Positions 37,993 through 51,274 of a DNA stretch of 64,000 nucleotides are shown here, piece after piece. The notes under the pieces are model-generated. The model did not search any database, was not told the origin of the DNA, and saw only the letters and a program-made list of their open reading frames with translations. The position numbers and the translations under genes are program-made. Source of the DNA: an uncultured virus (IMG/VR IMGVR_UViG_3300031413_000586) (Duplodnaviria > Heunggongvirae > Uroviricota > Caudoviricetes); IMG/VR virus record IMGVR_UViG_3300031413_000586; one strand, written 5' to 3'. Within the stretch, counting starts at the first letter, position 1. Each line of letters begins with the position of its first letter.

Positions 37993-38076
37993 TGGTGCGG
38001 AAAGTGGGACTCGAACCCACACGCCTTTCGGCACTGGCTTCTAAGACCAGCGTGTCTACCATTCCACCATTTCCGC
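37993..38076 (-). tRNA. tRNA-Leu(TAG)
   Basis: Cloverleaf, anticodon arm CTGGT-CTTAGAA-GCCAG, long variable arm, A73, encoded CCA. Confidence 0.95.
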
Positions 38077-38144
38077 ATGTATAATTTTCAATATATTCTA
38101 CAATCTACATGATTATAAGAGGTAATTAAAAATACTGTATGATA

Positions 38145-38229
38145 TGGTGCCTCCCGTGGGACTCGAACCCACACTCCTTTCGGAAACGGATTTTGAATCC
38201 GTCGCGTCTACCAATTCCGCCAGAGAGGC
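38145..38229 (-). tRNA. tRNA-Leu(CAA)
   Basis: ACGGA-TTCAAAA-TCCGT, long variable arm, ACCA. Confidence 0.95.
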
Positions 38230-38242
38230 ATAATTTTATTAA

Positions 38243-38485
38243 CTAATCCCAACTAGGTAGCATTAAATGAACGACAAGGCATTCATTTTTTAGATATTGA
38301 GGCATTTTGCTATCTTTACAAAAATAAAATGCTTCTACTAATCTATAAGCTTCTGTATTGCTCAGTGAATCTTTACGATCAAGTTTGTCTTTTAGTGGTT
38401 TAATAGCAATCACTGAAGGCTCGTCTTGAATTTTTTGTAAAACTTCTTTTGCCTTTTCGCCAATATCTTTCATATCTAGTTCCAT
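38243..38485 (-). CDS. hypothetical protein inside the tRNA array
   Basis: 80-aa ORF with GAGGG RBS. Confidence 0.7.
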   Translation of the reverse strand: MELDMKDIGEKAKEVLQKIQDEPSVIAIKPLKDKLDRKDSLSNTEAYRLVEAFYFCKDSKMPQYLKNECLVVHLMLPSWD

Positions 38486-38525
38486 AAAAATTCCCTCTGT
38501 GTAGCTAGATCTAATAACTATTATA

Positions 38526-38609
38526 TGGTGCCCGAGGTCGGACTCGAACCGACAAGCCTTTCGGCGGAAGATTTTAAGTCTTCTGTGTTTACCTTTTCAC
38601 CACTCGGGC
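38526..38609 (-). tRNA. tRNA-Leu(TAA)
   Basis: GAAGA-CTTAAAA-TCTTC, ACCA. Confidence 0.95.
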
Positions 38610-38615
38610 ATAACT

Positions 38616-38699
38616 TGGTGCGGTTAGTGGGACTTGAACCCACAATCCTTTCGGCACTGGCTTCTTAGACCAGCGTGTATACCATTCCACCACAACCGC
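38616..38699 (-). tRNA. tRNA-Leu(AAG)
   Basis: CTGGT-CTAAGAA-GCCAG, ACCA; A at position 34. Confidence 0.92.
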
Positions 38700-38720
38700 A
38701 TAAATCTTTTAATCTATAAA

Positions 38721-38804
38721 TGGTGCGGAAAGTGGGACTCGAACCCACACGCCTCTCGGCACTGGCTTCTAAGACCAGCGTGTCTACCATTCCACCATTT
38801 CCGC
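38721..38804 (-). tRNA. tRNA-Leu(TAG), near-identical to 37993..38076
   Basis: One difference, in the variable-arm loop (GAGA vs GAAA). Confidence 0.95.
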
Positions 38805-38811
38805 ATAGACA

Positions 38812-39156
38812 TTAATACTTCTTTTCAATATAATTTAAATCAACATTTTCAAATATAAAACCTATATTGTTATTCTTACAACAATTTACTACATCTTGAT
38901 AGTTTTCAAAATCATTGGCATCATAATCAGGAATAATATCTTCATGTTCATACAAATCAATTAAACTATAACTCAACTCAGTTTCATCCACACCCGCGAT
39001 GTCAGCCCATTCTTTTCGAATAGAACGTTTAAAAACATATTCAGTAAAATCTTCTTTATGTGGTTCTGCAACTAAATCACCATCAAGAAAAATATTCCAG
39101 TAACGATTGTCGTATAAATTAACGATAATAATTTTACCTTTAACTGATTTCGTCAT
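38812..39156 (-). CDS. hypothetical acidic protein inside the tRNA array
   Basis: AGGTGG RBS before ATG 39156; the ORF-track start runs into a tRNA. Confidence 0.7.
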   Translation of the reverse strand: MTKSVKGKIIIVNLYDNRYWNIFLDGDLVAEPHKEDFTEYVFKRSIRKEWADIAGVDETELSYSLIDLYEHEDIIPDYDANDFENYQDVVNCCKNNNIGFIFENVDLNYIEKKY

Positions 39157-39222
39157 GTTTAACCACCTTTGTAAGAAAATAAAACATAAAGCTAATTCGA
39201 ACTTTTGATATTGAATTAAATC

Positions 39223-39307
39223 TGGTCCCCGGAGCCGGACTCGAACCGGCACGGCTTTCGCCGGGAGATTTTAAGTCTCCTGTGTCTACCAATTCCACCA
39301 TCCGGGG
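39223..39307 (-). tRNA. tRNA-Leu(TAA)
   Basis: GGAGA-CTTAAAA-TCTCC; acceptor CCCCGGA/TCCGGGG, ACCA. Confidence 0.93.
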
Positions 39308-39325
39308 ATAAACACATATTAAATC

Positions 39326-39409
39326 TGGTGCGATTAGTGAGACTCGAACTCACAAGCCTTTCGGCACTAGCTTCTGAGACTAGCGTGTATACCATTCCAC
39401 CATAATCGC
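39326..39409 (-). tRNA. tRNA-Leu(CAG)
   Basis: CTAGT-CTCAGAA-GCTAG, ACCA. Confidence 0.95.
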
Positions 39410-39427
39410 ATAGTTACATCTATAATT

Positions 39428-39513
39428 TGGTGCAGAAGGCAGGATTCGAACCTACAAGTCTTGATGACACCTGCCTTAACGGCTGGCACATTTACCAATT
39501 CTGTTACTTCTGC
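39428..39513 (-). tRNA. aberrant Leu-type tRNA, loop CGTTAAG (nominal anticodon TTA)
   Basis: Acceptor GCAGAAG/CTTCTGC-ACCA, T arm GTAGG-TTCGAAT-CCTGC, long variable arm; anticodon stem CCAGC/GCAGG has an A.A mismatch; G33. Confidence 0.7.
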
Positions 39514-39521
39514 ATATAATT

Positions 39522-39605
39522 AATGAGAGAAGGGATTTGAACCCTCACGTCCTTTTGGACATGTCTTCGTTAAGACATTATGGCTACCAATTTCATCACT
39601 CTCAT
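39522..39605 (-). tRNA. aberrant Leu-type tRNA or pseudo-tRNA, no encoded CCA
   Basis: Acceptor ATGAGAG/CTCTCAT, T arm GAGGG-TTCAAAT-CCCTT, variable arm GTCC-AAAA-GGAC, anticodon arm ATGTC-TTAACGAA-GACAT (8-nt loop). Confidence 0.6.
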
Positions 39606-39699
39606 TACGGGTCTACTTTAATAATACTAGAATATAGCTTAATTAGTACGTTTTAAAGTTTCTAAAAGTCTTAGAGCGACCCAGTTTAACTTTTTAAAT

Positions 39700-39783
39700 T
39701 GGTGCGGATAGTGAGACTTGAACTCACACTTATTTCTAAAGCTGCTTTTGAGACAGCCGCGTCTACCTTTTCGCCACATCCGC
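39700..39783 (-). tRNA. tRNA-Leu(CAA)
   Basis: GCTGT-CTCAAAA-GCAGC, ACCA. Confidence 0.93.
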
Positions 39784-39948: not shown

Positions 39949-40054
39949 AAAAAAAGACCCTTTAGGGGTCCAGATGCGAAATAAGACGATTGTTACTTTT
40001 GGTCTGTTCTGCATCTGGACAATCTAGTTGTCCTAAAATGCAGACAAATAGATA
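39949..40054 (-). promoter_or_regulatory. attenuator: alternative protector / antiterminator / terminator hairpins
   Basis: Terminator GACCC-CTAAA-GGGTC-T7; GTCCAGATGC (40020-40011) is perfectly complementary to GCATCTGGAC (39977-39968), which overlaps the terminator 5' arm; protector TCTGCAT..GGACAA/TTGTCC..ATGCAGA (40044-40008). Confidence 0.75.
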
Positions 40055-40114
40055 CTAGCCCAAGCTAAATAGTGAGAGTAAGAGTAACAGTGATAATCGA
40101 ACAGTGGTGAACAT
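40055..40114 (-). CDS. Leu-rich leader peptide MFTTVRLSLLLLLSLFSLG (19 aa)
   Basis: GAGGA RBS, 8 Leu codons (5 consecutive), own promoter, followed by attenuator hairpins. Confidence 0.8.
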   Translation of the reverse strand: MFTTVRLSLLLLLSLFSLG

Positions 40115-40139
40115 TTTTTTCGTCCTCGTTAATATGCTT

Positions 40140-40168
40140 ATTTTATCAAATCTAGATTTCAAAGTCAA
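40140..40168 (-). promoter_or_regulatory. sigma70-type promoter of the leader peptide
   Basis: TTGACT-17 nt-TAAAAT with extended TG. Confidence 0.75.
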
Positions 40169-40169
40169 A

Positions 40170-40979
40170 TCATTCTTCGGGTACATTTTGACAAATTGCA
40201 CAATAATAAGTGCCACGTCCATTTTGTTTTATTTTGGTGACTGGGTGTTTGAGTTTATCAAACTTTTTTCCATAGACGTTAAAGTTGTCTTGAAAGCTGC
40301 CTTCTTGATCAAATGCATCTCTATAATCTGATATGGATGATCCGCCTTGTTGAATAGCTTTTTCTAAAATAGATTTTGTTTCGGCTACCAGTTGAGTGGC
40401 CTTTTCTTTTGTCAAATCTTGAGCCTTTGTCAAAGGGCTTATTTTACATATATACATCAGTTCAATCACATAGATATTGCCTAATCCAACTATATAGGAT
40501 TGGTCTAGTAGAAACTGTTTGATATTCTTTTTATTATTACGAGTCATGGCATAGAGAGTTTCAGGGTTAAAGTCGTTTGACAAAGGTTCTATGCCTAATT
40601 TTTTTATATATTTATTTTCATTTGCATTATCTTCATAAGTTACAAATCCAAATTTCCTGATGTCACTGTATATGAGAAATGTCCCATCTGTAAATTCGAT
40701 ACCAACTCGATTGAATTTATCTTCAATCAAATGATTTTGAATCAAAAACTTTCCAGTCATTCCTAAGTGGGCAACAATTTCACCTTTCGAAAGTTTGAAA
40801 ATAAGAAATTTCCCTCGACGAACAACATCAGTAACTGATTTATTGACTAATTGGTTTTCAAGATCCATTTGTACTGGTTCACGTAACCGATTGTTCCAGA
40901 TGGTTACTTTTTTTACCACCTTGTTTTTGATTCCGACTAATGAATTGACAACACATTGTACTTCTGGTAATTCTGGCAT
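40170..40979 (-). CDS. mutM: formamidopyrimidine-DNA glycosylase
   Basis: MPELPEV, RRGK, HLGMTG, D.RKFG, LLDQ..+.GLGNIY, R.TYYC..CQ (first half of the zinc finger degenerate). Confidence 0.95.
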   Translation of the reverse strand: MPELPEVQCVVNSLVGIKNKVVKKVTIWNNRLREPVQMDLENQLVNKSVTDVVRRGKFLIFKLSKGEIVAHLGMTGKFLIQNHLIEDKFNRVGIEFTDGTFLIYSDIRKFGFVTYEDNANENKYIKKLGIEPLSNDFNPETLYAMTRNNKKNIKQFLLDQSYIVGLGNIYVIELMYICKISPLTKAQDLTKEKATQLVAETKSILEKAIQQGGSSISDYRDAFDQEGSFQDNFNVYGKKFDKLKHPVTKIKQNGRGTYYCAICQNVPEE

Positions 40980-41033
40980 AAATAAATCTCCAATAATGGA
41001 GATAATTTTATACTGTTAAATTTAAAATGCAAG

Positions 41034-41390
41034 TTAATCCATCAGTCTTGCTAATAATCCTTTCTCGTTTTGATAAAAAGTTTTATAAGGATAGTCATCT
41101 AGCATATAAACACCTTCTTTAGCTGTCTTATTAGGATTGACATTTTTGTAAATTTCTATGAATTCGATTGTTTTAGGATTTAGAAATATTTCTTTTCCAT
41201 TAATTGATATTAAAAACTCTTCTGTCAACGTGCTTATTCGAAGTGATTTATCATAGATATGCCAAAACGATTTTTCAAAATCCAAATCTCTGTATTTTAT
41301 AAAATTAGTTTTTGAAATAATTCTTGATACATAGACACGATTAACAGTATGTACTTCTACTTGATAATTTAATATCCTCTTATCTTCCAT
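41034..41390 (-). CDS. hypothetical protein
   Basis: AAGGA RBS, 118 aa. Confidence 0.65.
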   Translation of the reverse strand: MEDKRILNYQVEVHTVNRVYVSRIISKTNFIKYRDLDFEKSFWHIYDKSLRISTLTEEFLISINGKEIFLNPKTIEFIEIYKNVNPNKTAKEGVYMLDDYPYKTFYQNEKGLLARLMD

Positions 41391-41516
41391 TTCTTTTCCT
41401 TGTGGATTATAATATTATTATAATTCCATCACTTTATAAGTCAATATTTTTATATTATTTATTGATTAAAATATAAAAAGAATTATACTATTTATTAATA
41501 TTTAAGGAGTTTTACA

Positions 41517-42518
41517 GTGAATGCTAGACAAAAAATAGATGTAGGTGTTATTGCAACAATTGTCATTGGATTTATAGCTATTATGAAATTGGGATTACTT
41601 CCAGCATTAATTGCCGGTATGATAACCTTTATGATGATGAGGTTTTCAGAAAATTTTATTTCAAATTATATGCGGTTGGGAAATAAGTCAAGATTTGTGG
41701 CTACTCTATTTATTTCATTGCTGATTATAGCTCTTTTAACATTGATTTCTATGTATTCTTTTTCTTGGCTATACAAGACACTAAGTCATCCTCACTTGCT
41801 GGTCAATCAAACGGCTATGGTACTTGATAATACCTTGAAAGACTTACCGCCTAACATTTCAGGTATGTTTCCACAGGACATTGATAAGTTAAAGATAAGT
41901 GTTGTTGATTTCATACAGGAAAATTTAACAGTATTAAGAGATTTTAGTCGTGGTGCTACTCATACATTGGTGGCTATGATCTTGGGAATGATTATAGGTA
42001 TCATGATTGCTGCCAATGATTTCAAAGAGACTGACAAGATGCTTATTCTTTCATTGAGAGAAAAATTTACAAATCTTGTAGAAGCTTTTAAACATGTTAT
42101 GGTAGCTCAAGCAGGAATTGCAGCTTTTAATGCAATAATGACATCTATTTTCTTATTGGTAGCTATGCCTATTTTTGGTATTGATTTTCCATTTTCTAAA
42201 ACCATTATTACGTTAACCTTTGTTATTGGTCTTATTCCTATTATTGGTAATCTTATTGTTAATGTAATTGTACTATTGGTTGGACTTTCAGTGTCTCCTT
42301 ATGTAGGTATAAGTTCATTACTTTATCTCATTTTTATACATAAATTTGAGTATTTCTTGAATGCTAAAATAATAGGCAGCAGAATAGAAGCTAAAGCCTT
42401 TGAGCTTCTAATCGCTATGTTGTTAATGGAATCTATATTTGGTGTTATAGGATTGATTGCGGCTCCTATACTCTATTGTTACTTAAAGAAAGAACTCAAA
42501 TATAACAATGTTATTTAA
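41517..42518 (+). CDS. AI-2E (PerM) family transporter
   Basis: Multi-TM protein with GLIPIIGN, IHKFEYFLNAKIIGSRI, FGVIGLIAAP. Confidence 0.88.
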   Translation: MNARQKIDVGVIATIVIGFIAIMKLGLLPALIAGMITFMMMRFSENFISNYMRLGNKSRFVATLFISLLIIALLTLISMYSFSWLYKTLSHPHLLVNQTAMVLDNTLKDLPPNISGMFPQDIDKLKISVVDFIQENLTVLRDFSRGATHTLVAMILGMIIGIMIAANDFKETDKMLILSLREKFTNLVEAFKHVMVAQAGIAAFNAIMTSIFLLVAMPIFGIDFPFSKTIITLTFVIGLIPIIGNLIVNVIVLLVGLSVSPYVGISSLLYLIFIHKFEYFLNAKIIGSRIEAKAFELLIAMLLMESIFGVIGLIAAPILYCYLKKELKYNNVI

Positions 42519-42612
42519 AATTGTGGATATCTTTAAACTGACATTAGATGATTGAAAGTTTTTGATATAGATGATATTAATTTGAGAAAAAAGGAGATAA
42601 ATCTCCTTTTTT

Positions 42613-43092
42613 TTACTTGAATAATGCAGTTAAACTTTCTTTTTCAACAAAAAGCCTTATTAAGTCCATTCTAGTTACTGTGTATTTTGATTGCTTGAAT
42701 TTATCGCCAAGAATAAACAATGCAGTGATAACATTGTTATTATTCTGAGTTAAATCAAGTTCGATTAAATGAACGTTTCCTCTTTCTTTGTAATCAACCA
42801 AGTTAAATTGGCATTTACCTTCGTGAAAAGATTCTCTGAATAGCGTTAGAATCGTTTCTTTGCTGCAGTCTACTTCTGTTTCAATAAGATAACTTTTCTT
42901 GGTTACGATATTTTTTGCTATTTCTGGATTGGTAATGGAACCTTCCAGTGTATTCCAATTTTTCATAAAGAATACTTTTGCAATTGCTTCTAGTATTTTG
43001 TTATTAGGCAAAGTTATACCTTGTTCAATAAGATATTTTGAAAGGTTTTTGGCCGAGGCTTTAATATTTTGTTTGGTTGTTTCATATTTCAT
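42613..43092 (-). CDS. protein with N-terminal 'K..AK.L...L...LE.+AK...NW' domain (Glyoxalase_8-like)
   Basis: IKASAKNLSKYL...LEAIAKVFFMKNWN; AGGAG RBS; long 5' leader. Confidence 0.65.
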   Translation of the reverse strand: MKYETTKQNIKASAKNLSKYLIEQGITLPNNKILEAIAKVFFMKNWNTLEGSITNPEIAKNIVTKKSYLIETEVDCSKETILTLFRESFHEGKCQFNLVDYKERGNVHLIELDLTQNNNNVITALFILGDKFKQSKYTVTRMDLIRLFVEKESLTALFK

Positions 43093-43264
43093 TTTAATAC
43101 TCCTAATTGATGTCCAAAAAGTGCTTCCATTGCTTATAGGCAATTAGTTGTGATTGAGTTTAAAAGATCCTTAGTTCGCCAGTTTGGAAGCGGCTAGCCA
43201 TAGACACAATATGTGTTAAAGGAGGCTGTGTAGATTTTATTATGCTTTATCTTGAAAGTCAATC

Positions 43265-43714
43265 TTATAAAGTGATATTTTGTTTTTTTAAATAAATTTG
43301 GACTTCATTTATTACATGTTTTTTAAAATCATCCAAGTAATAATTAGAATAGTTATTGTTATCATGTTGACTGTTGAGTAAAACTGACATTTTTTCATTA
43401 TGCAGTTTGTTTTCAGGCGAAAAAAGTAATCTGGAATAACATTGATCGTAAAGTTTATTGGTTAAACCTTTTAGGTTATCATTATGGTTATTTTTTCGGT
43501 ATTGAAGAATATTTATAAATTTTTTTAATTCTTTTATATGTTTTTTTGTTTTAAGCTTCATGTGTATATTCATGAGACTTATTTTTTTATTTTTTTCATC
43601 TTGTATTAATTTTTTATATTCATTAATAGTATGGTCTATTTTTATTTTTTTATCAATAATTATCTTGGTTTCTATATTATATATATCAACTAATTCTTTT
43701 AAAATTTCGCTCAT
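43265..43714 (-). CDS. hypothetical protein
   Basis: 149-aa ORF, AAGG RBS. Confidence 0.6.
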   Translation of the reverse strand: MSEILKELVDIYNIETKIIIDKKIKIDHTINEYKKLIQDEKNKKISLMNIHMKLKTKKHIKELKKFINILQYRKNNHNDNLKGLTNKLYDQCYSRLLFSPENKLHNEKMSVLLNSQHDNNNYSNYYLDDFKKHVINEVQIYLKKQNITL

Positions 43715-43821
43715 AATTGGACACCTTTATGTTTTATTCAATTTTAACTGTCTTGCATTTTATAAGAATTTATCAAAAAAGTCCACTCAAGAACTTTTTT
43801 ATATAAGCTAACATTAATCAA

Positions 43822-44274
43822 TTATTTTATATAGGCTTGTAAACTGATTTCTATTATTTTGTCTACATTAACAGATTTTATCATGCCTTGATTACTAAAA
43901 TGCTTGTTGGCTTCTGCCAGTTCTTCATTTACGATATGTTTGGCAACTGTTTTCTTTTGGATAGCTCTAGCAAGTCTTTTTCTTGTCAGGCTAATTTGGA
44001 CAATCCAATCAATCAACTTAAAGTAGCACTTTCGGTCATCTATTTCACATTTAAAATCATTTTTAAAATTTTTAATACAGTGGGCATCTACTTCTGCGAT
44101 TTGTGTACTGATTAATTTATAAGCGTAGGCTTCATTTTTAACATTAGATTTGACATGTTGCTTTACAAAGACTATGACAGCAGGCCAATCTGACTCCTTG
44201 ATTTTATAATCATAGATTATTTTGGCACTTAATGCTATTAGTAAGCTATATGGATTTTCGATAAGTGTAGTCAT
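43822..44274 (-). CDS. hypothetical protein
   Basis: 150-aa ORF. Confidence 0.65.
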   Translation of the reverse strand: MTTLIENPYSLLIALSAKIIYDYKIKESDWPAVIVFVKQHVKSNVKNEAYAYKLISTQIAEVDAHCIKNFKNDFKCEIDDRKCYFKLIDWIVQISLTRKRLARAIQKKTVAKHIVNEELAEANKHFSNQGMIKSVNVDKIIEISLQAYIK

Positions 44275-44342
44275 TGTTTACTCTTGTGTTTATATAAATT
44301 ATACAATATTTTTTTCATAAATAAAGCATTAGCTAAAAATAA

Positions 44343-44627
44343 TTATTGAAAAAATTCTTGATTTATATTTTCATTTACTTGATTGATAAATTGTTCTATA
44401 TTATTCACTATCTTTTTTACCATTTCTTTATTCGATTTTACAAATTCGATATTTTCATCCATGACCAATTCAACAATAGTAGAGATGTAGAAGTTTAACA
44501 AGTTTTCAAGTTTTATTAATTCTTCCAAGTCATCTTTTAAAAGAGTTGTTTTATCAATCGAATCAAATTTTTCTTTAATTTCAATAAGTTTGATTGAAAG
44601 ATCATTTATTTTTTCTAAAAAAGTCAT
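44343..44627 (-). CDS. hypothetical helical protein
   Basis: AAGGA RBS, 94 aa. Confidence 0.65.
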   Translation of the reverse strand: MTFLEKINDLSIKLIEIKEKFDSIDKTTLLKDDLEELIKLENLLNFYISTIVELVMDENIEFVKSNKEMVKKIVNNIEQFINQVNENINQEFFQ

Positions 44628-44798
44628 CTATATTCCTTAGTTTTATTGTATAATAGATAGATACCATATATTATGAATATGTAAAGAAAACGAGAATGAT
44701 ATCATGCAAAATGCAAAAAAAAGCTCAGTGACAAAAAAAAGTTGTAAAAATATGTCAAAAGCTTGTTGACATCTTTATTTTTACTGCTAATATGTAGT

Positions 44799-45097
44799 TA
44801 TCGGGAACGAACAACAATAACACTGTACTGCTAAATGACTTAGATGTATGGACCGATAATGTAATGGAAGACAATAATAAAAAAGGAAGTAGTGTATTCA
44901 AGGATGGTATTTGTCAGGATGATAAAGTAAACGGAATTCACGAAAATAAAAAAGGACTGTTACAACGTTAAATGGAAGCCAAATTAGAATGTCGATGGAT
45001 GAAAATGTTCTAGTTTATGTACATAAGGATATGTTACAATATAATGGATATATGCAACAAAGGAATGGAAAAAAGAGTCTTCGGACTCTTTTTTTTT
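44799..45097 (+). ncRNA. CsrB/RsmZ-like multi-GGA sponge sRNA (about 300 nt)
   Basis: Promoter TTGACA..TGcTAATAT (44766-44793); 12 ANGGA plus CAGGA and GGGA, several in hairpin loops (ACATA-AGGA-TATGT, ATATA-ATGGA-TATAT); terminator GAGTC-TTCG-GACTC-T9; no ORF in the track. Confidence 0.8.
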
Positions 45098-45140
45098 ATC
45101 TTTTTTTTTATTGTGGTATAATAATAAAAAAGGATAAATT

Positions 45141-45782
45141 ATGATAAATGAAATTAAAGAAAAATATAATGCACTTGGCGTATTTCCTTACGGTTCAACT
45201 GTTTATGGCAACAAGAAACCAGAAGATTTTGATTTTATTGTTGTATCAGATAACCCCTATTTTCAAGAGCAGTTCAAAAAAAATGGGCAGGATTTTGAAA
45301 TCAGTAATTACAGTAAAGAAGAGTTTATTAAACGTTTGAATGAACACGAAATTTCTGTTTTGGAATGTTTATATATCGATCATAAAGATAAATATATTGA
45401 TACATTATTAAAACAAGAAATAGATTTATTTATGCTGAATAAAGAAAAGCTAAGAGAAGCCTGTTCTCAGAAAAGTTCCAATAGTTACGTAAAAGCGAAA
45501 AAGAAATTGATAGTACCAGAAGATTTTAATTTATCGGTTTCATTGAAATCGTTATGGCATTCTATTCGAATATTGGATTTTGGATTACAGATTGCAACAT
45601 CGGGCAAGATAGATCCAACTACATGTAATGATCGTTATGATGAAATAGTAAAAGATTATTTAGTTTTCAATAACGACTGGACAAAACTTCATACAAAGTA
45701 TCGCCCTGTCTATAATGAAATTGCATCAAATTTTAAGTTGGCTTGTCCAAAGAAAATTAATATGACTCAAAAATATAACTGA
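45141..45782 (+). CDS. Pol-beta-superfamily nucleotidyltransferase
   Basis: YGSTVYG.....DFDF motif plus helical C-domain KSLWHSIRIL. Confidence 0.8.
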   Translation: MINEIKEKYNALGVFPYGSTVYGNKKPEDFDFIVVSDNPYFQEQFKKNGQDFEISNYSKEEFIKRLNEHEISVLECLYIDHKDKYIDTLLKQEIDLFMLNKEKLREACSQKSSNSYVKAKKKLIVPEDFNLSVSLKSLWHSIRILDFGLQIATSGKIDPTTCNDRYDEIVKDYLVFNNDWTKLHTKYRPVYNEIASNFKLACPKKINMTQKYN

Positions 45783-46443
45783 ATGCAGCCAAGAATACAA
45801 TAATCATAAAACTTTCATTATCATAATGGCTATATTGACCAATAACAGTGTCATAGAATTCATAAAACTTTTTTGTTCTTTCTCCGATTAATGAATGAAT
45901 TTTTTCTTCATTACCACGTTCGAAACAGGCACATAAAGCGGCAATACAGTATTTCAATGAGGTTTTTCTATCAACTCTCATATGTATCAATAGATTTTCA
46001 ATTTTACGAACATCAATGTCTTTGATATTTACATTAAGATTGGTTTCTTTTTTAAATAAACCCAAAAATATACTTGTGTTCATTGTAGCATGTTCCATAA
46101 CAAAACAACTTTCAACCTGATCCACATTTAAAGCTGTTCCCTCAATCAATTGTTCAATTTCGTATCTAATGAGGTTTCTGTAAGCTGAATTTTTATCATC
46201 AAGAAAATCATTGAAATATTCATACAAAGTTGCCATATTACTATTGTTTTGGCTAAGCCTTATGCTATCTCTCTGATTTTTTTCAATTCCGTAAATAAAC
46301 ATTCTTTGATTAATAATATTAGAAGCGAAATAGGCTAGTGATTCATCAAATCCCAAATCTAAACTTTTTGATAAAATAAAAGATGATTCAGCTTCATGCA
46401 ACTGGTTAACAAACTCGTTCAGCGGTGCTTTATTCATAAACAC
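45757..46443 (-). CDS. hypothetical protein
   Basis: AGGAG RBS, 228 aa. Confidence 0.7.
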   Translation of the reverse strand: MFMNKAPLNEFVNQLHEAESSFILSKSLDLGFDESLAYFASNIINQRMFIYGIEKNQRDSIRLSQNNSNMATLYEYFNDFLDDKNSAYRNLIRYEIEQLIEGTALNVDQVESCFVMEHATMNTSIFLGLFKKETNLNVNIKDIDVRKIENLLIHMRVDRKTSLKYCIAALCACFERGNEEKIHSLIGERTKKFYEFYDTVIGQYSHYDNESFMIIVFLAAFSYIFESY

Positions 46444-46559
46444 TCCTTTTTTGTAATTATAGGTATAAAAACAAATAAAGTCAACGGAAAAACTTTTTAA
46501 AGACCTAATTGTATGCTATAATATAAATAATAATACATATATTTTATAGAGGAATTAGC

Positions 46560-48929
46560 ATGAAGGTTGTATATTTTTTATCCGCTATGCCGGGAACAGG
46601 TAAATCTACATTTATTAGAGATAATGGTTTAGAGGCTCATACACTTTCTTTAGATACAATGAGACACGTATATGCAGGAGCGATTACTGATTATGATGGT
46701 AATCTTGTACTTTCTAATTCAAGAGAAGATTTCGTCTTTGGTAAATTCATGGAGGCACTTGATTCACGTTTACAGCTAGGTGGTACTTTATTCATTGATA
46801 ATTTAAATCCAGATCAAAAATCGATTGATAGCTATTTGGATATCATAAAAAAGTATGATTACGATTATAAGGTTATCAAGTTTCCACTACAGCATATTGA
46901 TTTTTATTACATGCGAAATCAACAAAGAGAACAATATAAACAGCTTCCTAAAGAAGCTATAGATAGAAATTACGTTACATTTACTGCTGCTAATTTTAAT
47001 AGCACAACAAAAATTGTAACTCCTGAGCAAGCCGTAAAGGAAATTTTTGCAAAAGCTGATGATTTATTGATTGATTTGAATCAATACAATAAGATTCATT
47101 TTATAGGAGATCTTCAAGGTTCTTTTTATCCTATTAAAAAATATTTTGAACAAGAAGGTGGTTTAAAGAAAAACGAATTTTATCTCTTTGTAGGTGATTA
47201 TATTGATCGTGGCATTGAAAATGATAAATGTTTTCATTTCATAAAAAAATATATGGAGTATGAAAACGTTCTATTATTGGCAGGTAATCATGAAAAGCAT
47301 TTATACAATTATAGCCATGAGTTGTACACCCCACCTGATGAGTTTATGCATAATACTCTACCTCAACTTATTAAGGCTGGTATAACCAGTGAGGATATGA
47401 AAAATGTCTATCGTCATTTAGAGCTATATAGTTTTATGCAATATGATGATAAGAAAATAATGGCAACTCATGCTGGGTTAACCGCTGTACCTGTATACCC
47501 TCGCCTATTGACTGCCGATGAATATATGAGAGGTTTTGGTCCTTACAGTTATGATGTTGATGGTAAATTTGAAGAAATGAATACAGATAACGAATGGTTT
47601 CAAGTTCATGGACATAGAAATCAGCATAAATTAGGATTTGAAAGTTATAAAAAAAGTTTTGCTCTAGAAGCCGATGTGGAATATGGTGGAAGTTTACCAG
47701 TGCTTAGATTGAACCGTGAAGGATTTAATGGTGTTTATATTACCAATAGTGTCTTTAACAAGGCGAAAGTGTTAAGTGACGAAAAAGAAAAAGATATGTT
47801 TGCTGTTAAAACAACTGAACATGGACTTTCAGAATTTTTATCCACAAAAATAAACCACATCAAGTCGGGTTTGGAAATTATTAAAGAATTGAGAGGCAAT
47901 CCTTCCATAAAAGAACAAGTGTCTGCTAATCTACCATATTTGTCAGCTTTTAATTTTACCGAAAATGTGGTTTCTGATACGAGATCGGATAAAGATCTAG
48001 TGGTACAAGCTCCGGGCTTGTTTATCAACAATCAGACAGGAGAAATTGTTGCTCGTGGTTTTGATAAATTGTTTAATATCAACGAAGCAGGCATTCAATC
48101 TGCAGCAATGGAAAATGTGAAATTAAATTTGAAAGGCAAGATAAGTTTATATGAAAAAGAAAATGGAACTCTTGGTATTATAGGCTATGATTCACAGTCC
48201 AATAATCTTGTTTACGCTTCCAAAGATTCTATTGATGGAGCATTCTCTGGTTATTTGAAAGAACTTGCATCAAAGCAATTTTCTTCAAGCGAATTACAAT
48301 TTATGCAAATATATGCAAATAAACATAATGTAAACTATTTATTTGAAGTTAATGATACTGCAAATGATCCTCATATTATTAAATATGATCAACCACATCT
48401 TGTGTTAATAGGTATTGTTAAACGCGATTTTAAATTTTCTCAATTAAAGATAGAACATTTAGAAAGTTTTGCGGCTAATTTTGAAAATTTAACAACGAAG
48501 AAAAGATTTGCTAATTTCACTACATCAGATAATTTTGAAAAATTTTATATGGCTGTTATGAAAGAAAGTGCTTTAACTACCAAGCGTCAATTAGAAGGAT
48601 ATATTTGCGAAGATGAGTCGTTGAATATGATTAAGATAACACTTCCTTATTACAACTTTTGGAAATGCATGGATGACTTTGCACAGGATATTAACAAAGG
48701 CATTGAAAAAGATAGTGCATTCAATATAGCTAAAAAAGTCAATACTACTTCTTTGATACAGGACTCTGATAAAGCTATTGCCATCAAATTCTTAGAATAT
48801 GTTAAAGAATTACCTACAAATAAAAAAGAGTATAGTATTATTGCATTAAGAGATGATTTTCTGGCTAATAATGAGGGTCTTATCAATTCAATTAATACTT
48901 TACCCAAGAAACCAAAAATGAAACCATAA
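46560..48929 (+). CDS. trifunctional RNA repair enzyme: polynucleotide kinase + metallophosphoesterase + Rnl1-like ligase
   Basis: P-loop AMPGTGKST; GDLQG, GDYIDRG, GNHE, THAG, VHGH; ligase RGFDKLFN, EKENG, FE, EGY. Confidence 0.88.
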   Translation: MKVVYFLSAMPGTGKSTFIRDNGLEAHTLSLDTMRHVYAGAITDYDGNLVLSNSREDFVFGKFMEALDSRLQLGGTLFIDNLNPDQKSIDSYLDIIKKYDYDYKVIKFPLQHIDFYYMRNQQREQYKQLPKEAIDRNYVTFTAANFNSTTKIVTPEQAVKEIFAKADDLLIDLNQYNKIHFIGDLQGSFYPIKKYFEQEGGLKKNEFYLFVGDYIDRGIENDKCFHFIKKYMEYENVLLLAGNHEKHLYNYSHELYTPPDEFMHNTLPQLIKAGITSEDMKNVYRHLELYSFMQYDDKKIMATHAGLTAVPVYPRLLTADEYMRGFGPYSYDVDGKFEEMNTDNEWFQVHGHRNQHKLGFESYKKSFALEADVEYGGSLPVLRLNREGFNGVYITNSVFNKAKVLSDEKEKDMFAVKTTEHGLSEFLSTKINHIKSGLEIIKELRGNPSIKEQVSANLPYLSAFNFTENVVSDTRSDKDLVVQAPGLFINNQTGEIVARGFDKLFNINEAGIQSAAMENVKLNLKGKISLYEKENGTLGIIGYDSQSNNLVYASKDSIDGAFSGYLKELASKQFSSSELQFMQIYANKHNVNYLFEVNDTANDPHIIKYDQPHLVLIGIVKRDFKFSQLKIEHLESFAANFENLTTKKRFANFTTSDNFEKFYMAVMKESALTTKRQLEGYICEDESLNMIKITLPYYNFWKCMDDFAQDINKGIEKDSAFNIAKKVNTTSLIQDSDKAIAIKFLEYVKELPTNKKEYSIIALRDDFLANNEGLINSINTLPKKPKMKP

Positions 48930-48960
48930 AAATTGAGCATTCGTGCTCTTTTTTTTGGGC

Positions 48961-49043
48961 AAAAAAAAACTCATAAGTCGATTTGGGGGGTAACTTATGA
49001 GTCAGTACAGTGGGTATTTCTTTATTATTGTTATTTGGGGGAT
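48961..49043 (-). ncRNA. putative ~80-nt small RNA
   Basis: Promoter TTGTGT-17-TATAAT (49076-49048); terminator CTCATAAGT..ACTTATGAG-T9; two CCCCCAAAT motifs. Confidence 0.5.
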
Positions 49044-49269
49044 GTACATTATATCCAAATAGAAATATAAACACAAGCATATTTTAATCTTTTTTAAGGA
49101 ATAATTTTCACTGTATTGTTAGCCACTATGAGGTATTCATACAGTGTAGATATATAATATAAGTTCATGATTTATAAAATAAATTTAAAACAATTTGACG
49201 CTGTATTATTGACATATATTCCTTAGAAATATATAATAACAATTATTATTAGATAAGGAGTGGTTAAAG

Positions 49270-49842
49270 ATGAAACAAGAAGTTGTCATTTGTAATGGTG
49301 CTGTAGATTTAGGAGAGATTAAAATAAAGCTTTCAAAAACTATTGCCAAACTTATTACACATAAAAAACTTAAACAACGAGAAGTTGAAGATCTTTTAGA
49401 GATCAAGCAGCCACGAGTCAGTGACTTGGTGAATGGGAAGGTTGAGAAATTTTCAATTGATTCACTATTAGAATATCTGAATAAAATTGGTTATGTGATT
49501 GAGGGCTATAATGTTCATCAAAAAGAATATATAAATGCCATCAAATCAAAATTGATTACATCAATCGTTAATATTGTTGATAATAATAAATTTAAACAAC
49601 GTCAAGTTCAAGAAATATTGAATATAAAGCAACCAAGAGTAAGTGATCTTGTGAATAAAAAAATTGATAAATTTTCTGTAGATGCGTTGATTGAATATTT
49701 AACAAAAATAGGATATGTATTTGAAGTTCGTATTATGGATTCTGCAAAAACACCTATATCTTTACAGTTTAAGTCAATCAACAAAGATATAAAGAAACCA
49801 AAAATGGCTAAAAAATTAATTAAGGAATACAAGACTGCTTAA
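49270..49842 (+). CDS. tandem XRE-family HTH regulator
   Basis: Two repeats of KQR+V.++L.IKQPRVSDLVN.K++KFS+D.L+EYL. Confidence 0.9.
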   Translation: MKQEVVICNGAVDLGEIKIKLSKTIAKLITHKKLKQREVEDLLEIKQPRVSDLVNGKVEKFSIDSLLEYLNKIGYVIEGYNVHQKEYINAIKSKLITSIVNIVDNNKFKQRQVQEILNIKQPRVSDLVNKKIDKFSVDALIEYLTKIGYVFEVRIMDSAKTPISLQFKSINKDIKKPKMAKKLIKEYKTA

Positions 49843-49966
49843 TAAAAATAAAAGACCATATTCAAATGGTCTTTTTTTTATCTTGCGAAATTTATTTGTA
49901 CATATAGAATATATGTAAAACAAAAAACCGGTACGAAGCCGGTTTTTATTTGTCAACAATCAGTGG

Positions 49967-51274
49967 TTAATGATCAGTTCCTTCTTCAATTTCTTTCTGA
50001 TATTCAGCATCAAATGTTTCTTTGTATATTTTTAAAACCAACATAATAATTACAGGGTAGACAAAAGTAGTTAGAATAACATTGCCCACAACTATTGCCT
50101 CAAAAAGCTCTTTATGTTCAAAGTCGCGTGGCAACATATGCAGCATCAAGACTGAAATCGCCCCTTTTACACCAGCAGCAGATAAGATCATCCACCAGTG
50201 GAAGGAAATATTATGCATCTGCTTTACGTTATTGCTGATGAAGGAAAATTTTGCCAACATTAACATTCGTATTACAGTTGTAGCTACGAATACAGCAATA
50301 ATTTCACGCCAATGTTTAACCAATAAATCAATATTAACAATGTCAGCCATAGATACAAACAATATTGTTGTACCAATAAGTGCAATATATTGAACATTGG
50401 CAATTACAGTCTCATGACCTGCTTTATCTTTGACTGCTTCTTGTAGCTTTCTAAACATGAGACGAGTGAACGGCATATTGATAATTTCTTCATCTTTTTC
50501 AATACGAGCAGTCAATACATAATTAGACGTTAAAATTGATACAATAACTGCCAAAATACCTGAAAAATGAAAATGTTCAGCAATCATGTAAGATGCAAAA
50601 GCAATCGCCAGAATAATAGCAGTCTCAGCTTTAGGATTTTTGGTAATATTTAATGCGAGTACACCTGCAAAACCTATAATAATACCAGTTATGATAGCAC
50701 CAACAATCACCTTGAATGATACTATAGTCATATCTGTAAAACTGAAAGGCTCTGTGCTATTCAGGTAATAGATGCCAATGGAAAACATAATCAAGGCTGT
50801 TGCATCATTGAAAAGAGATTCGCCCTCAGCAATTATTTTCAAATGATGTGGTACATTATTTTTACCAAATGATGCCGATACAGAGATAGGATCTGTAGGC
50901 AAAATCATACAAAAAAGAACAACCAATGCAGCAATTGATAAATTGTATTCAGGTAGAATAAAGCGGTCAAGAGATACAGCAGCTACTGTAGACAAAAGAA
51001 CCATCAATACTGCTACATAAAACAGGCTCATGGCATGACGTTGAATATCTCTAATTTTCAGGGATAGAGCATCCACCGACAGTAAGATAGGCAACATTAA
51101 AATCAAAATTTGGTCAAATATATGATTATTAACTTCAATAAAACTAAAGTTAAACAGTTTTAGTGCCATAACCGTCGAAATCAGTGTAATGGGGGTTGGA
51201 ATATTAAATTTATCCTGAATCAGCAGTGAGAGAGCAGTCATCAAGAGAATAAACAAAGTAGCTTCTAAAAACAT
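49967..51274 (-). CDS. CPA1/NhaP-type cation:proton antiporter
   Basis: PTDPISV, EGESLFNDA, SGILAV; many TM helices. Confidence 0.92.
   Translation of the reverse strand: MFLEATLFILLMTALSLLIQDKFNIPTPITLISTVMALKLFNFSFIEVNNHIFDQILILMLPILLSVDALSLKIRDIQRHAMSLFYVAVLMVLLSTVAAVSLDRFILPEYNLSIAALVVLFCMILPTDPISVSASFGKNNVPHHLKIIAEGESLFNDATALIMFSIGIYYLNSTEPFSFTDMTIVSFKVIVGAIITGIIIGFAGVLALNITKNPKAETAIILAIAFASYMIAEHFHFSGILAVIVSILTSNYVLTARIEKDEEIINMPFTRLMFRKLQEAVKDKAGHETVIANVQYIALIGTTILFVSMADIVNIDLLVKHWREIIAVFVATTVIRMLMLAKFSFISNNVKQMHNISFHWWMILSAAGVKGAISVLMLHMLPRDFEHKELFEAIVVGNVILTTFVYPVIIMLVLKIYKETFDAEYQKEIEEGTDH

What the first reader, a model, noticed from the sequence alone, without database searches (positions are those of the whole stretch)
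44766..45097. Element-encoded CsrB/RsmZ-like sponge sRNA
Seen: a stand-alone unit of about 300 nt (promoter TTGACA..TGcTAATAT; terminator GAGTC-TTCG-GACTC-T9) with 14 GGA motifs before the terminator. Twelve are ANGGA, spaced roughly every 10-30 nt, and several sit in hairpin loops (ACATA-AGGA-TATGT; ATATA-ATGGA-TATAT; TGTCA-GGA-TGATA). It also carries A-rich AACAACAATAA and ACAATAATAAAAAA tracts. Established: CsrA/RsmA bind ANGGA in loops and are titrated by CsrB/C and RsmX/Y/Z; AAnAAnAA tracts are the Hfq/Crc-binding motif of CrcZ. Inference: the element titrates the host global translational regulator CsrA (and perhaps Hfq/Crc) to rewire metabolism or free its own GGA-containing RBSs. I am not aware of this being well described in phages.
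Basis: partly seen in the sequence, partly recalled or inferred. Interest (0 to 1): 0.85.

Follow-up and report, generated by a model that had tools for sequence, protein, structure and literature searches.

The report
Expressed GGA-rich CsrB-like sponge RNA gene
A stand-alone gene for a roughly 300-base non-coding RNA studded with the binding motif of the bacterial regulator CsrA is real, conserved and abundantly transcribed in nature, but whether it sits on a phage or in an odd bacterium is unresolved.

Summary
Window 44766-45097 (+) is a promoter-to-terminator unit with 15 GGA, 12 of them ANGGA. The window's mean is 2.4 GGA per 300 nt.

It is a real gene. Three further distinct versions (four loci, two of them identical) lie upstream of the same nucleotidyltransferase gene. 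Each keeps 15-21 GGA, no UCC and almost no GGAG, although only 6-9 of 15 sites are shared by position. One version has duplicated a ~146-nt module.

In 4 of 4 metatranscriptome runs laid, RNA contigs of 257-265 nt match 44809-45070 exactly. The flanks are uncovered except one low-depth 165-nt contig at 45123-45287 and short mismatched pieces.

No Rfam family matches. There is no conserved ORF.

Two relatives carry a perfect UvrY/GacA box (TGTAAG-N6-CTTACA) about 250 nt upstream; the window's copy has none.

Best reading, about 0.6: a new family of CsrA/RsmA-titrating sponge RNA.

Not shown: any csrA gene in the 64 kb plus 181 kb I could read, and the nature of the replicon. IMG/VR labels a relative a provirus, yet related genes lie on 0.6-1.9 Mb contigs. 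The Hfq/Crc idea is weak. Earlier notes of this scan list similar phage-borne candidates on other DNA.

The parts
44766..44771 (+). -35 hexamer TTGACA of the sRNA promoter
   Evidence: Conserved in all four versions.
44785..44793 (+). Extended -10, TGcTAATAT
   Evidence: TAGTAT or TAATAT at the same place in L002, L077 and L078.
44800..45097 (+). Predicted sRNA of about 298 nt. The start is inferred as 7 nt after the -10; the end is the terminator T-run. It carries 15 GGA.
   Evidence: The start and end are inferred and not mapped.
44809..45070 (+). Part recovered as RNA contigs in metatranscriptomes (257-265 nt, 0 mismatches)
   Evidence: X16 covers 44809-45070, X17 44810-45070, X18 44809-45065 and X12 44812-45059. 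In the flanks, 43800-44527 and 45347-46500 have no cover in any of the 4 runs. Between these lie a 165-nt X12 contig at 45123-45287 (depth 3.6, 3 mismatches) and short mismatched pieces at 44549-44582, 44730-44753 and 45090-45112.
44810..44821 (+). 5' A-rich AAN repeat, AACAACAATAAC (a possible Hfq distal-face type site)
   Evidence: The equivalent tract is present in L002, L077 and L078.
44800..44857 (+). Helix 1: ATCGG (44800-44804) pairs with CCGAT (44853-44857)
   Evidence: Two pairs with compensatory changes.
44860..44964 (+). Helix 2, long-range: TGTAATGG (44860-44867) pairs with CTGTTACA (44957-44964). It closes the module that is duplicated in L077.
   Evidence: It pairs in 5 of 5 rows; 7 of 8 pairs never vary.
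44912..44924 (+). Hairpin TGTCA-GGA-TGATA with GGA in the loop
   Evidence: (GGA 0.96 unpaired). TCAGGA(T/A)GAT is conserved in all rows.
44981..45016 (+). Hairpin of 11 pairs, AAATTAGAATG / TGTTCTAGTTT, with ATGGA in a 14-nt loop
   Evidence: 96% of cells paired.
45021..45053 (+). Two short 3' hairpins, ACATA-AGGA-TATGT and ATATA-ATGGA-TATAT
   Evidence: The first is predicted (GGA 0.93 unpaired); the second is not favoured (0.19). This region is poorly alignable between versions.
45075..45097 (+). Intrinsic terminator GAGTC-TTCG-GACTC followed by T9
   Evidence: one compensatory pair.
44343..44627 (-). Divergent neighbour, a 94-aa ORF of no known family. It is syntenic in all versions.
45114..45782 (+). 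Downstream gene with its own extended -10 (TGgTATAAT, 45114-45122). It encodes a 213-aa nucleotidyltransferase (PF01909) starting at 45141.

Best explanation
Window 44800-45097 (+) is the gene of an abundant non-coding RNA of about 300 nt. It acts as a protein sponge for a CsrA/RsmA-family translational regulator.

A sigma-70-type promoter drives it and an intrinsic terminator ends it. The RNA is A-rich and C-poor and contains no UCC, so its 14-15 A(N)GGA motifs cannot be masked by pairing. They sit in short hairpin loops or in single-stranded A-rich linkers at 5-30 nt spacing. Several CsrA dimers would be bound per molecule and withdrawn from the GGA-containing leaders and ribosome-binding sites of mRNAs.

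Selection acts on the number of sites, not their positions. The RNA grows by duplicating a structured module. In some relatives transcription is probably wired to a UvrY/GacA-type response regulator.

Shown here: the motif statistics, conservation, absence of coding, a discrete transcript and the GacA-box sequence. Inferred: CsrA binding, the titration effect, and that the host or organism has the Gac/Csr pathway.
For: (1) Density. There are 15 GGA in 298 nt, one per 20 nt. E. coli CsrB, scored the same way, has 22 in 369 nt, one per 17 nt.

(2) Motif shape over the four versions (66 GGA). The base at -2 is A in 55 of 66, which is the A(N)GGA form. The base after GGA is G in only 2 of 66, although G makes up 23% of the RNA. 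UCC occurs 0 times in all four. In contrast, 32 of 63 genes of the window have GGA at -20 to -4 (background 11%), and many of those printed read AGGAG (my reading of the listing, not counted).

(3) TCAAGGATGG (44897-44906) contains CAAGGAUG, the CsrA recognition motif quoted in bioRxiv 10.1101/2025.07.22.666180 (passage). [quoted passage not shown]

(4) Accessibility. GGA triplets are 0.58-0.71 unpaired against 0.45-0.48 for all bases. Their hairpin-loop probability is 0.19-0.30 against 0.12-0.16.

(5) Conservation. Homologues lie upstream of the orthologous gene in L002 (identical to L076), L077 and L078. The GGA count is 15, 15, 21 and 15, while only 6-9 of 15 are at the same alignment columns. 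L077 has duplicated a ~146-nt module.

(6) Structure. Five helices are 96.6% paired, against about 40% when partners are slid. Three pairs show compensatory changes.

(7) Transcript. In 4 of 4 metatranscriptome runs laid (4 study codes, phyllosphere and soil), exact contigs cover only 44809-45070 at word depth 16-33. The regions 43800-44527 and 45347-46500 have no cover in any run. Six RNA runs hold 0.15-0.19 of the 1440-nt query, the share the sRNA alone would give.

(8) UvrY/GacA box. A perfect TGTAAGCTTCCTCTTACA lies at L002 5345-5362 and L077 2237-2254, 253 nt upstream of the -35. It is conserved while its flanks differ. Chance expectation is 0.02 per 181 kb. The consensus is cited from PMC3171408.

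(9) There is no conserved ORF.
Against: No csrA was found among 80 window ORFs of 45 aa or more, nor in a six-frame scan of the 181-kb relative at E<=1. The organism or host is unknown.

No CsrB, CsrC, RsmX, RsmY or RsmZ model hits even at E<=10.

Hairpin-loop display of GGA (0.19-0.30) is weaker than in E. coli CsrB (0.46). Folding energy is no better than in shuffles, with z 0.17 and -0.02.

The GacA box is absent from the window's own copy and from L078. Where present, it lies unusually far upstream and could belong to the divergent neighbour gene.

GGA sites are not clearly better conserved by position than other triplets: 0.40-0.60 against 0.24-0.41.

Only four distinct sequences exist, so covariation is thin.

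RNA contigs cannot give strand, ends or level.
Confidence: 0.6

Rival explanations
1. The RNA is a sponge or scaffold for a different GGA-recognising RNA-binding protein. That protein could be encoded elsewhere on the same replicon, possibly with no known family. CsrA would not be involved.
For: No csrA was seen in the 245 kb read. About 85-90% of the ORFs of the related 181-kb record have no Pfam or PHROG family, so an unknown partner is easy to hide. The RNA always lies between the same two uncharacterised genes.
Against: The motif is exactly the A(N)GGA form known for CsrA. A UvrY/GacA box is present in two relatives. The synteny is explained by the close relatedness of the four genomes, which are collinear over about 120 kb.
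Confidence: 0.15
2. The RNA is a base-pairing or otherwise acting regulatory RNA, and its GGA richness is a by-product of purine-rich composition.
For: The RNA is 62% purine. Long invariant blocks such as AAGGACTGTTACA and TTCTAGTTTATGTA are conserved beyond the GGA. This conservation is more typical of seed or structural regions.
Against: Composition-matched shuffles give 5.4-9.3 GGA against 15-21 observed. The A at -2, the avoidance of GGAG and the total lack of UCC are not explained by composition. The count is maintained under positional turnover.
Confidence: 0.1
3. The RNA is a Shine-Dalgarno mimic that titrates 30S subunits or the anti-SD of 16S rRNA.
For: AAGGA resembles the ribosome-binding sites used by this genome.
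Against: GGAG, the core seen in many of the genome's own SD sequences, is avoided: 2 of 66 motifs. I know of no precedent (recalled).
Confidence: 0.05
4. The region is a cis-acting leader or attenuator of the downstream nucleotidyltransferase gene, or an mRNA for a small peptide.
For: It is always directly upstream of the same gene. Short ORFs exist, for example a 35-aa ORF at 44864-44971.
Against: A strong terminator is followed by a separate, conserved extended -10 (TGGTATAAT / TGGTATACT / TGGTATTAT) for the downstream gene. The full-length RNA contigs stop before the terminator, and only one run has a separate low-depth 165-nt contig over the start of the gene. ORFs differ in frame, length and sequence between versions.
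Confidence: 0.05

Closest known systems
CsrB / CsrC of Enterobacteriaceae (Rfam RF00018 and relatives), with CsrB1/CsrB2 of Shewanella
   Same: A stand-alone sRNA gene with an intrinsic terminator. It is about 300-370 nt long with one GGA per 17-20 nt. The CAGGAUG-like hairpin TGTCAGGATGATA is present. A UvrY/GacA box TGTAAG-N6-CTTACA lies upstream in two relatives.
   Different: No sequence or structure homology is detectable with Rfam models. The RNA is much more A+T-rich (32% against 51% G+C). Fewer GGA are predicted in hairpin loops. The box lies about 250 nt upstream and is missing in the window's own copy.
RsmX / RsmY / RsmZ of Pseudomonas and Legionella
   Same: A(N)GGA motifs in loops and linkers; GacA or LetA control; amplification by duplication. 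rsmX-2 arising by duplication of rsmX-1 is stated in the abstract of PMC7911923 (listing).
   Different: Those RNAs are 110-130 nt long with 5-8 GGA (recalled). This one is 270-420 nt with 15-21. No model match.
CrcZ / CrcY (Hfq/Crc-titrating RNAs of Pseudomonas)
   Same: AANAANAA tracts, 5-8 per molecule. The 5'-proximal one is conserved.
   Different: The enrichment is modest. The promoter looks sigma-70 type, whereas CrcZ is recalled to depend on RpoN/CbrB. There is no Rfam match. GGA, not the A-rich motif, is the dominant signal.
Candidate phage-borne CsrA decoy RNAs noted earlier in this scan (e1-5881351, e1-6081099)
   Same: GGA-loop RNAs before a terminator on large uncultured virus-like DNA.
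   Different: Those are AI notes on other genomes and I did not check them. By their own words they lacked relatives or expression evidence. This one has both, but no adjacent csrA.

Membership tests
Csr/Rsm-type CsrA sponge sRNAs (functional class) | Many GGA / A(N)GGA motifs, accessible in loops or single strands | tested here: met
   15 GGA, 12 of them ANGGA. A at -2 in 55 of 66 motifs over four versions. GGA is 0.58-0.71 unpaired against 0.45-0.48 overall. No UCC.
Csr/Rsm-type CsrA sponge sRNAs (functional class) | Independent non-coding transcription unit, expressed as a discrete abundant RNA | tested here: met
   Promoter and terminator. No conserved ORF. RNA contigs cover only 44809-45070 in 4 of 4 runs laid. 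The ends and the strand are not mapped.
Csr/Rsm-type CsrA sponge sRNAs (functional class) | A CsrA-family protein in the same cell that binds the RNA | not testable with these tools
   No PF02599 hit in the window's ORFs or in the 181-kb relative. The rest of the genome and the host are not available.
Csr/Rsm-type CsrA sponge sRNAs (functional class) | Transcription dependent on a GacA/UvrY-type regulator through an upstream TGTAAG-N6-CTTACA box | tested here: inconclusive
   A perfect box is present in L002/L076 and L077, about 250 nt upstream. There is none within 2 mismatches near the window's copy and no exact box in L078.
Rfam families CsrB, CsrC, RsmX, RsmY, RsmZ (homology) | Match to the covariance model | tested here: not met
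   No hit at gathering score in the window. None of these families is among the 26 matches at E<=10 in 44500-45300.
CrcZ-type Hfq/Crc sponge | Several AANAANAA motifs plus an RpoN/CbrB-dependent promoter and a match to the family model | tested here: not met
   The motifs are moderately enriched. But the promoter is sigma-70-like and there is no CrcZ match. The RpoN dependence of CrcZ is recalled.
Bacteriophage genome (the carrier) | Capsid, portal, terminase or integrase genes; genome size in the phage range | tested here: inconclusive
   IMG/VR labels the relative a provirus at 58% completeness. Accessory phage-type genes are present. No structural gene or integrase was found in 181 kb. Related genes lie on 0.6-1.9 Mb contigs.

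The most novel reading that the evidence does not exclude
The carrier is a very large virus-like element or prophage of a gammaproteobacterium that lives on leaves, in milk and in soil. The RNA is its tool for taking over the host's Gac/Csr switch. It would be transcribed by host RNA polymerase, and in some lineages placed under host GacA. It would soak up host CsrA while the rest of the element stays silent. That would make it the first virus-borne CsrA sponge with evidence of expression in nature.
Probability: 0.25. Interest if true: 0.8.

Novelty: new member of a known kind. Interest (0 to 1): 0.5.

Why it matters
CsrA-type regulators control carbon flow, motility, biofilm and virulence in many bacteria. 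Their RNA antagonists are known mainly from cultured Gammaproteobacteria, and Rfam models do not find them outside those lineages.

This is a well-supported new family of such an RNA, with homologues, maintenance of the motif count, module duplication and transcripts in several metatranscriptomes. Its genome is very unusual: A+T-rich, mostly genes of unknown function, with same-isotype tRNA arrays and RNA-repair genes.

If the carrier turns out to be a virus or prophage, a mobile element would be shown to rewire a global post-transcriptional switch with a decoy RNA. I found no description of that in three literature searches: the listings, and passages read.

The RNA is short and easy to test by gel shift and reporter assays.

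Tried and rejected
Rfam at gathering score and at E<=10 gave only terminator-like chance hits.

DNA searches of GenBank phages found nothing: blastn with 44600-45300 and megablast with 40000-50000. Exact 33-mer and 19-mer scans of IMG/VR found nothing new. A 15-mer scan gave 68 stretches, of which all but the known relative look like chance hits; I used them only as a composition control.

A two-block pattern scan of 185,579 species genomes gave 0 matches.

A profile (nhmmer) of the RNA against all 1.05 Mb held found no further copy.

Metagenome loci are not held as records.

Host or carrier identification did not succeed:
- GAPDH is about 60% identical to Alpha- and Gammaproteobacteria.
- tblastn of four proteins against phages gave only distant hits of 29-46%, or none.
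- The ESM Atlas gave only a T4 Y00F-like C-terminal domain, as a lead.

Earlier-findings look-ups by place and by sequence gave nothing relevant.

An alignment with distant nucleotidyltransferase loci failed on in-frame stops, and I dropped it.

Parts of the laid stretch without RNA cover are not evidence that the flanking genes are silent.

The giant-eukaryotic-virus reading was considered and rejected. Shine-Dalgarno motifs precede 32 of 63 genes, and the Mimivirus-type AAAATTGA motif (recalled) occurs only 9 and 12 times on the two strands, where my rough estimate from composition is about 6 per strand.

Full report
**What is there.** Window 44766-45097 (+) lies in a 513-nt gap between a divergent 94-aa ORF (44343-44627, -) and a 213-aa nucleotidyltransferase gene (45141-45782, +). 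The gap holds:
- a near-consensus sigma-70-type promoter, TTGACA then 16 nt then TGcTAATAT (10 of 12 with TG);
- about 300 nt without a conserved reading frame;
- an intrinsic terminator, GAGTC-TTCG-GACTC-T9.

The downstream gene has its own extended -10 (TGgTATAAT, 45114-45122), which is conserved in relatives.

**The GGA signal.** There are 15 GGA between 44804 and 45085, and 12 of them are ANGGA. Over the whole 64-kb window, a 300-nt window holds 2.44 +/- 1.67 GGA on the + strand. The maximum on the - strand is 9. The 8 highest + windows listed all lie in this region. Shuffling the RNA's own letters gives 5.4 +/- 1.95.

Absolute counts of 14-18 do occur in unrelated viral DNA of higher G+C. 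The signal is therefore strong relative to this 30% G+C genome rather than unique in itself.

**It is a conserved gene.** The orthologous nucleotidyltransferase (64-71% identity) was found in one IMG/VR record (L002) and three metagenome contigs (L076, L077, L078). L076 is identical to L002 over the aligned region. Each has a GGA-dense stretch directly upstream. All share the same -35, -10 and terminator.

The three versions without a duplication each have exactly 15 GGA. Only 6-9 of these lie in the same alignment columns. L077 has 21 GGA because a module of about 146 nt is duplicated in tandem (profile positions 54-199).

Over all 66 motifs:
- the base two positions before GGA is A in 55;
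- the base after GGA is G in only 2, although G makes up 23% of the RNA;
- the complement UCC never occurs.

The genome's own ribosome-binding sites, by contrast, often read AGGAG in the listing, and 32 of 63 genes have GGA at -20 to -4 against an 11% background. So the RNA displays A(N)GGA(H) and avoids both masking and strong Shine-Dalgarno cores.

No ORF is conserved in frame, length or sequence.

**Structure.** RNAalifold on five rows gives five helices:
- a 5' helix;
- a long-range helix, UGUAAUGG/CUGUUACA, that closes the duplicated module;
- the hairpin UGUCA-GGA-UGAUA;
- an 11-pair hairpin with AUGGA in its loop;
- the terminator.

96.6% of cells pair, against about 40% when partners are slid. 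Three pairs show compensatory change. With four distinct sequences this is weak but consistent.

Folding energy is no better than in shuffles (z 0.17 and -0.02). GGA triplets are more often unpaired (0.58-0.71) than the average base (0.45-0.48), and somewhat more often in hairpin loops (0.19-0.30 against 0.12-0.16). E. coli CsrB, run as a positive control, gives 0.80 and 0.46.

**Expression.** Public runs that hold the 1440-nt query include phyllosphere, leaf, plant and dairy metagenomes. They also include six metatranscriptomes, from six study codes, that hold only 0.15-0.19 of its words.

I laid four of them on window 43800-46500. Each has one contig of 257-265 nt, without a single mismatch, spanning 44809/44810/44812 to 45059-45070, at word depth 16-33. 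The regions 43800-44527 and 45347-46500 have no cover in any of the four. Between them and the sRNA lie one 165-nt contig at 45123-45287 (depth 3.6, 3 mismatches) and short mismatched pieces at 44549-44582, 44730-44753 and 45090-45112.

Contigs cannot give strand, exact ends or level, and three of the four runs may belong to one campaign. Still, the same piece, bounded by the predicted promoter and terminator, is what survives in RNA libraries from two habitats.

**Link to the Gac/Csr pathway.** L002/L076 and L077 carry an extra ~400 nt in the upstream spacer. It contains TGTAAGCTTCCTCTTACA, a perfect match to the UvrY/GacA box TGTAAG-N6-CTTACA that precedes csrB-type genes (consensus from a passage of PMC3171408).

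The box is identical in the two relatives while its flanks differ. It occurs nowhere else in the 169 loci held. Chance expectation is 0.02 times per 181 kb.

It lies 253 nt upstream of the -35, which is far. It is missing from the window's own copy (no match within 2 mismatches nearby) and from L078.

**What it is not.** No Rfam family matches at gathering score. None of CsrB, CsrC, RsmX, RsmY, RsmZ or CrcZ appears even at E<=10. It is therefore not a member of those homology families.

The Hfq/Crc idea rests on AANAANAA tracts that are moderately enriched (5-8 against 0.9-1.7; P 0.004-0.026). The 5' one is conserved. I rate this as possible Hfq binding, not as a CrcZ-like function.

**The carrier.** No whole genome is held for the window.

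The window is collinear with a 181-kb IMG/VR record labelled provirus at 58% completeness. That record has a single GGA-dense site.

Both sequences are about 30% G+C and use Shine-Dalgarno sites. Most of their genes have no known family. The recognisable genes include:
- RtcB and a Pnkp-RNA ligase fusion;
- DprA-like, HNH, Sir2, Nudix and NinI-like genes;
- three short aminoacyl-tRNA synthetases;
- ClpA-like, GAPDH, TrxB, Fpg and UvdE genes, and transporters.

There are also arrays of same-isotype tRNA genes.

No capsid, portal, terminase or integrase was found. The window's own GAPDH lies on a 604-kb contig, and relatives lie on contigs of 1.04, 1.54 and 1.86 Mb. The conserved sRNA pattern is absent from all 185,579 species genomes.

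I cannot tell whether this is a very large prophage or virus-like element, or an unusual bacterium. No csrA gene is present in what I could read.

**Literature.** Three full-text searches and passages of three papers gave no phage-encoded CsrA sponge RNA. I saw listings and passages only. Earlier AI notes of this scan list two phage-borne candidates on other DNA, which I did not check.

**Verdict.** This is a real, expressed, conserved sRNA gene. Its most likely function (about 0.6) is titration of a CsrA/RsmA-family protein, as a new sequence family of a known kind. The 'phage-encoded' part of the claim remains open.

Noticed in passing
window 37993-39783 (-); G001 77.6-79.5 kb (L162 17614-19500) and 156.1-158.2 kb (L166 16104-18247): There are arrays of same-isotype tRNA genes. 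The window has 10: eight tRNA-Leu with anticodons tag, caa, taa, aag and cag, some twice; one suppressor-like tRNA (tta); and one with a four-base anticodon. The relative has 13 at the same place, mostly Leu, and a second array of Ala x6, Arg x3, Met x2 plus one aberrant tRNA. RtcB (1541-2971) and a Pnkp-RNA ligase fusion (46560-48929) suggest a tRNA repair or replacement theme.
   Followed up: partly
whole window; L159-L168 (G001): The carrier is an A+T-rich (about 30% G+C) genome that uses Shine-Dalgarno sites. Most ORFs match no Pfam or PHROG family. It has three short aminoacyl-tRNA synthetases, a Ser/Thr kinase, DUF4116 and tandem paralogue arrays, and no virion genes were found. Related genes sit on contigs of 0.6-1.9 Mb, and the lineage is absent from the species-genome collection. 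Whether it is a bacterium or a giant mobile element is worth its own study.
   Followed up: partly
L002 5108-5614; L077 about 2010-2506: An extra ~400 nt of non-coding spacer upstream of the sRNA promoter is absent from the window and from L078. It holds the perfect UvrY/GacA box, an overlapping ACAAG-N-CTTGT palindrome and repeated TTGCAAAAAAC-like motifs.
   Followed up: partly
window 45141-45782 (+) and 44343-44627 (-): A 213-aa minimal nucleotidyltransferase (PF01909 at the N-terminus only, with an unassigned C-terminal half) and a 94-aa helical-looking ORF of no family flank the sRNA in every version. Distant homologues of the nucleotidyltransferase (33-40% identity) in other large A+T-rich viral contigs have no GGA-rich RNA nearby.
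   Followed up: no
window 7883-9934 (+): A 683-aa ORF of unknown function. Its C-terminal ~140 residues resemble the phage T4 Y00F domain: phrog_1106, and a structure lead with TM 0.71 by the target. This is a lead only.
   Followed up: no
window 45059 (run X12): One RNA contig ends at 45059 and runs on into an Illumina-adapter-like sequence. That marks a fragment end inside the RNA, just before the terminator, and could be a processed 3' end or random fragmentation (table 7).
   Followed up: no
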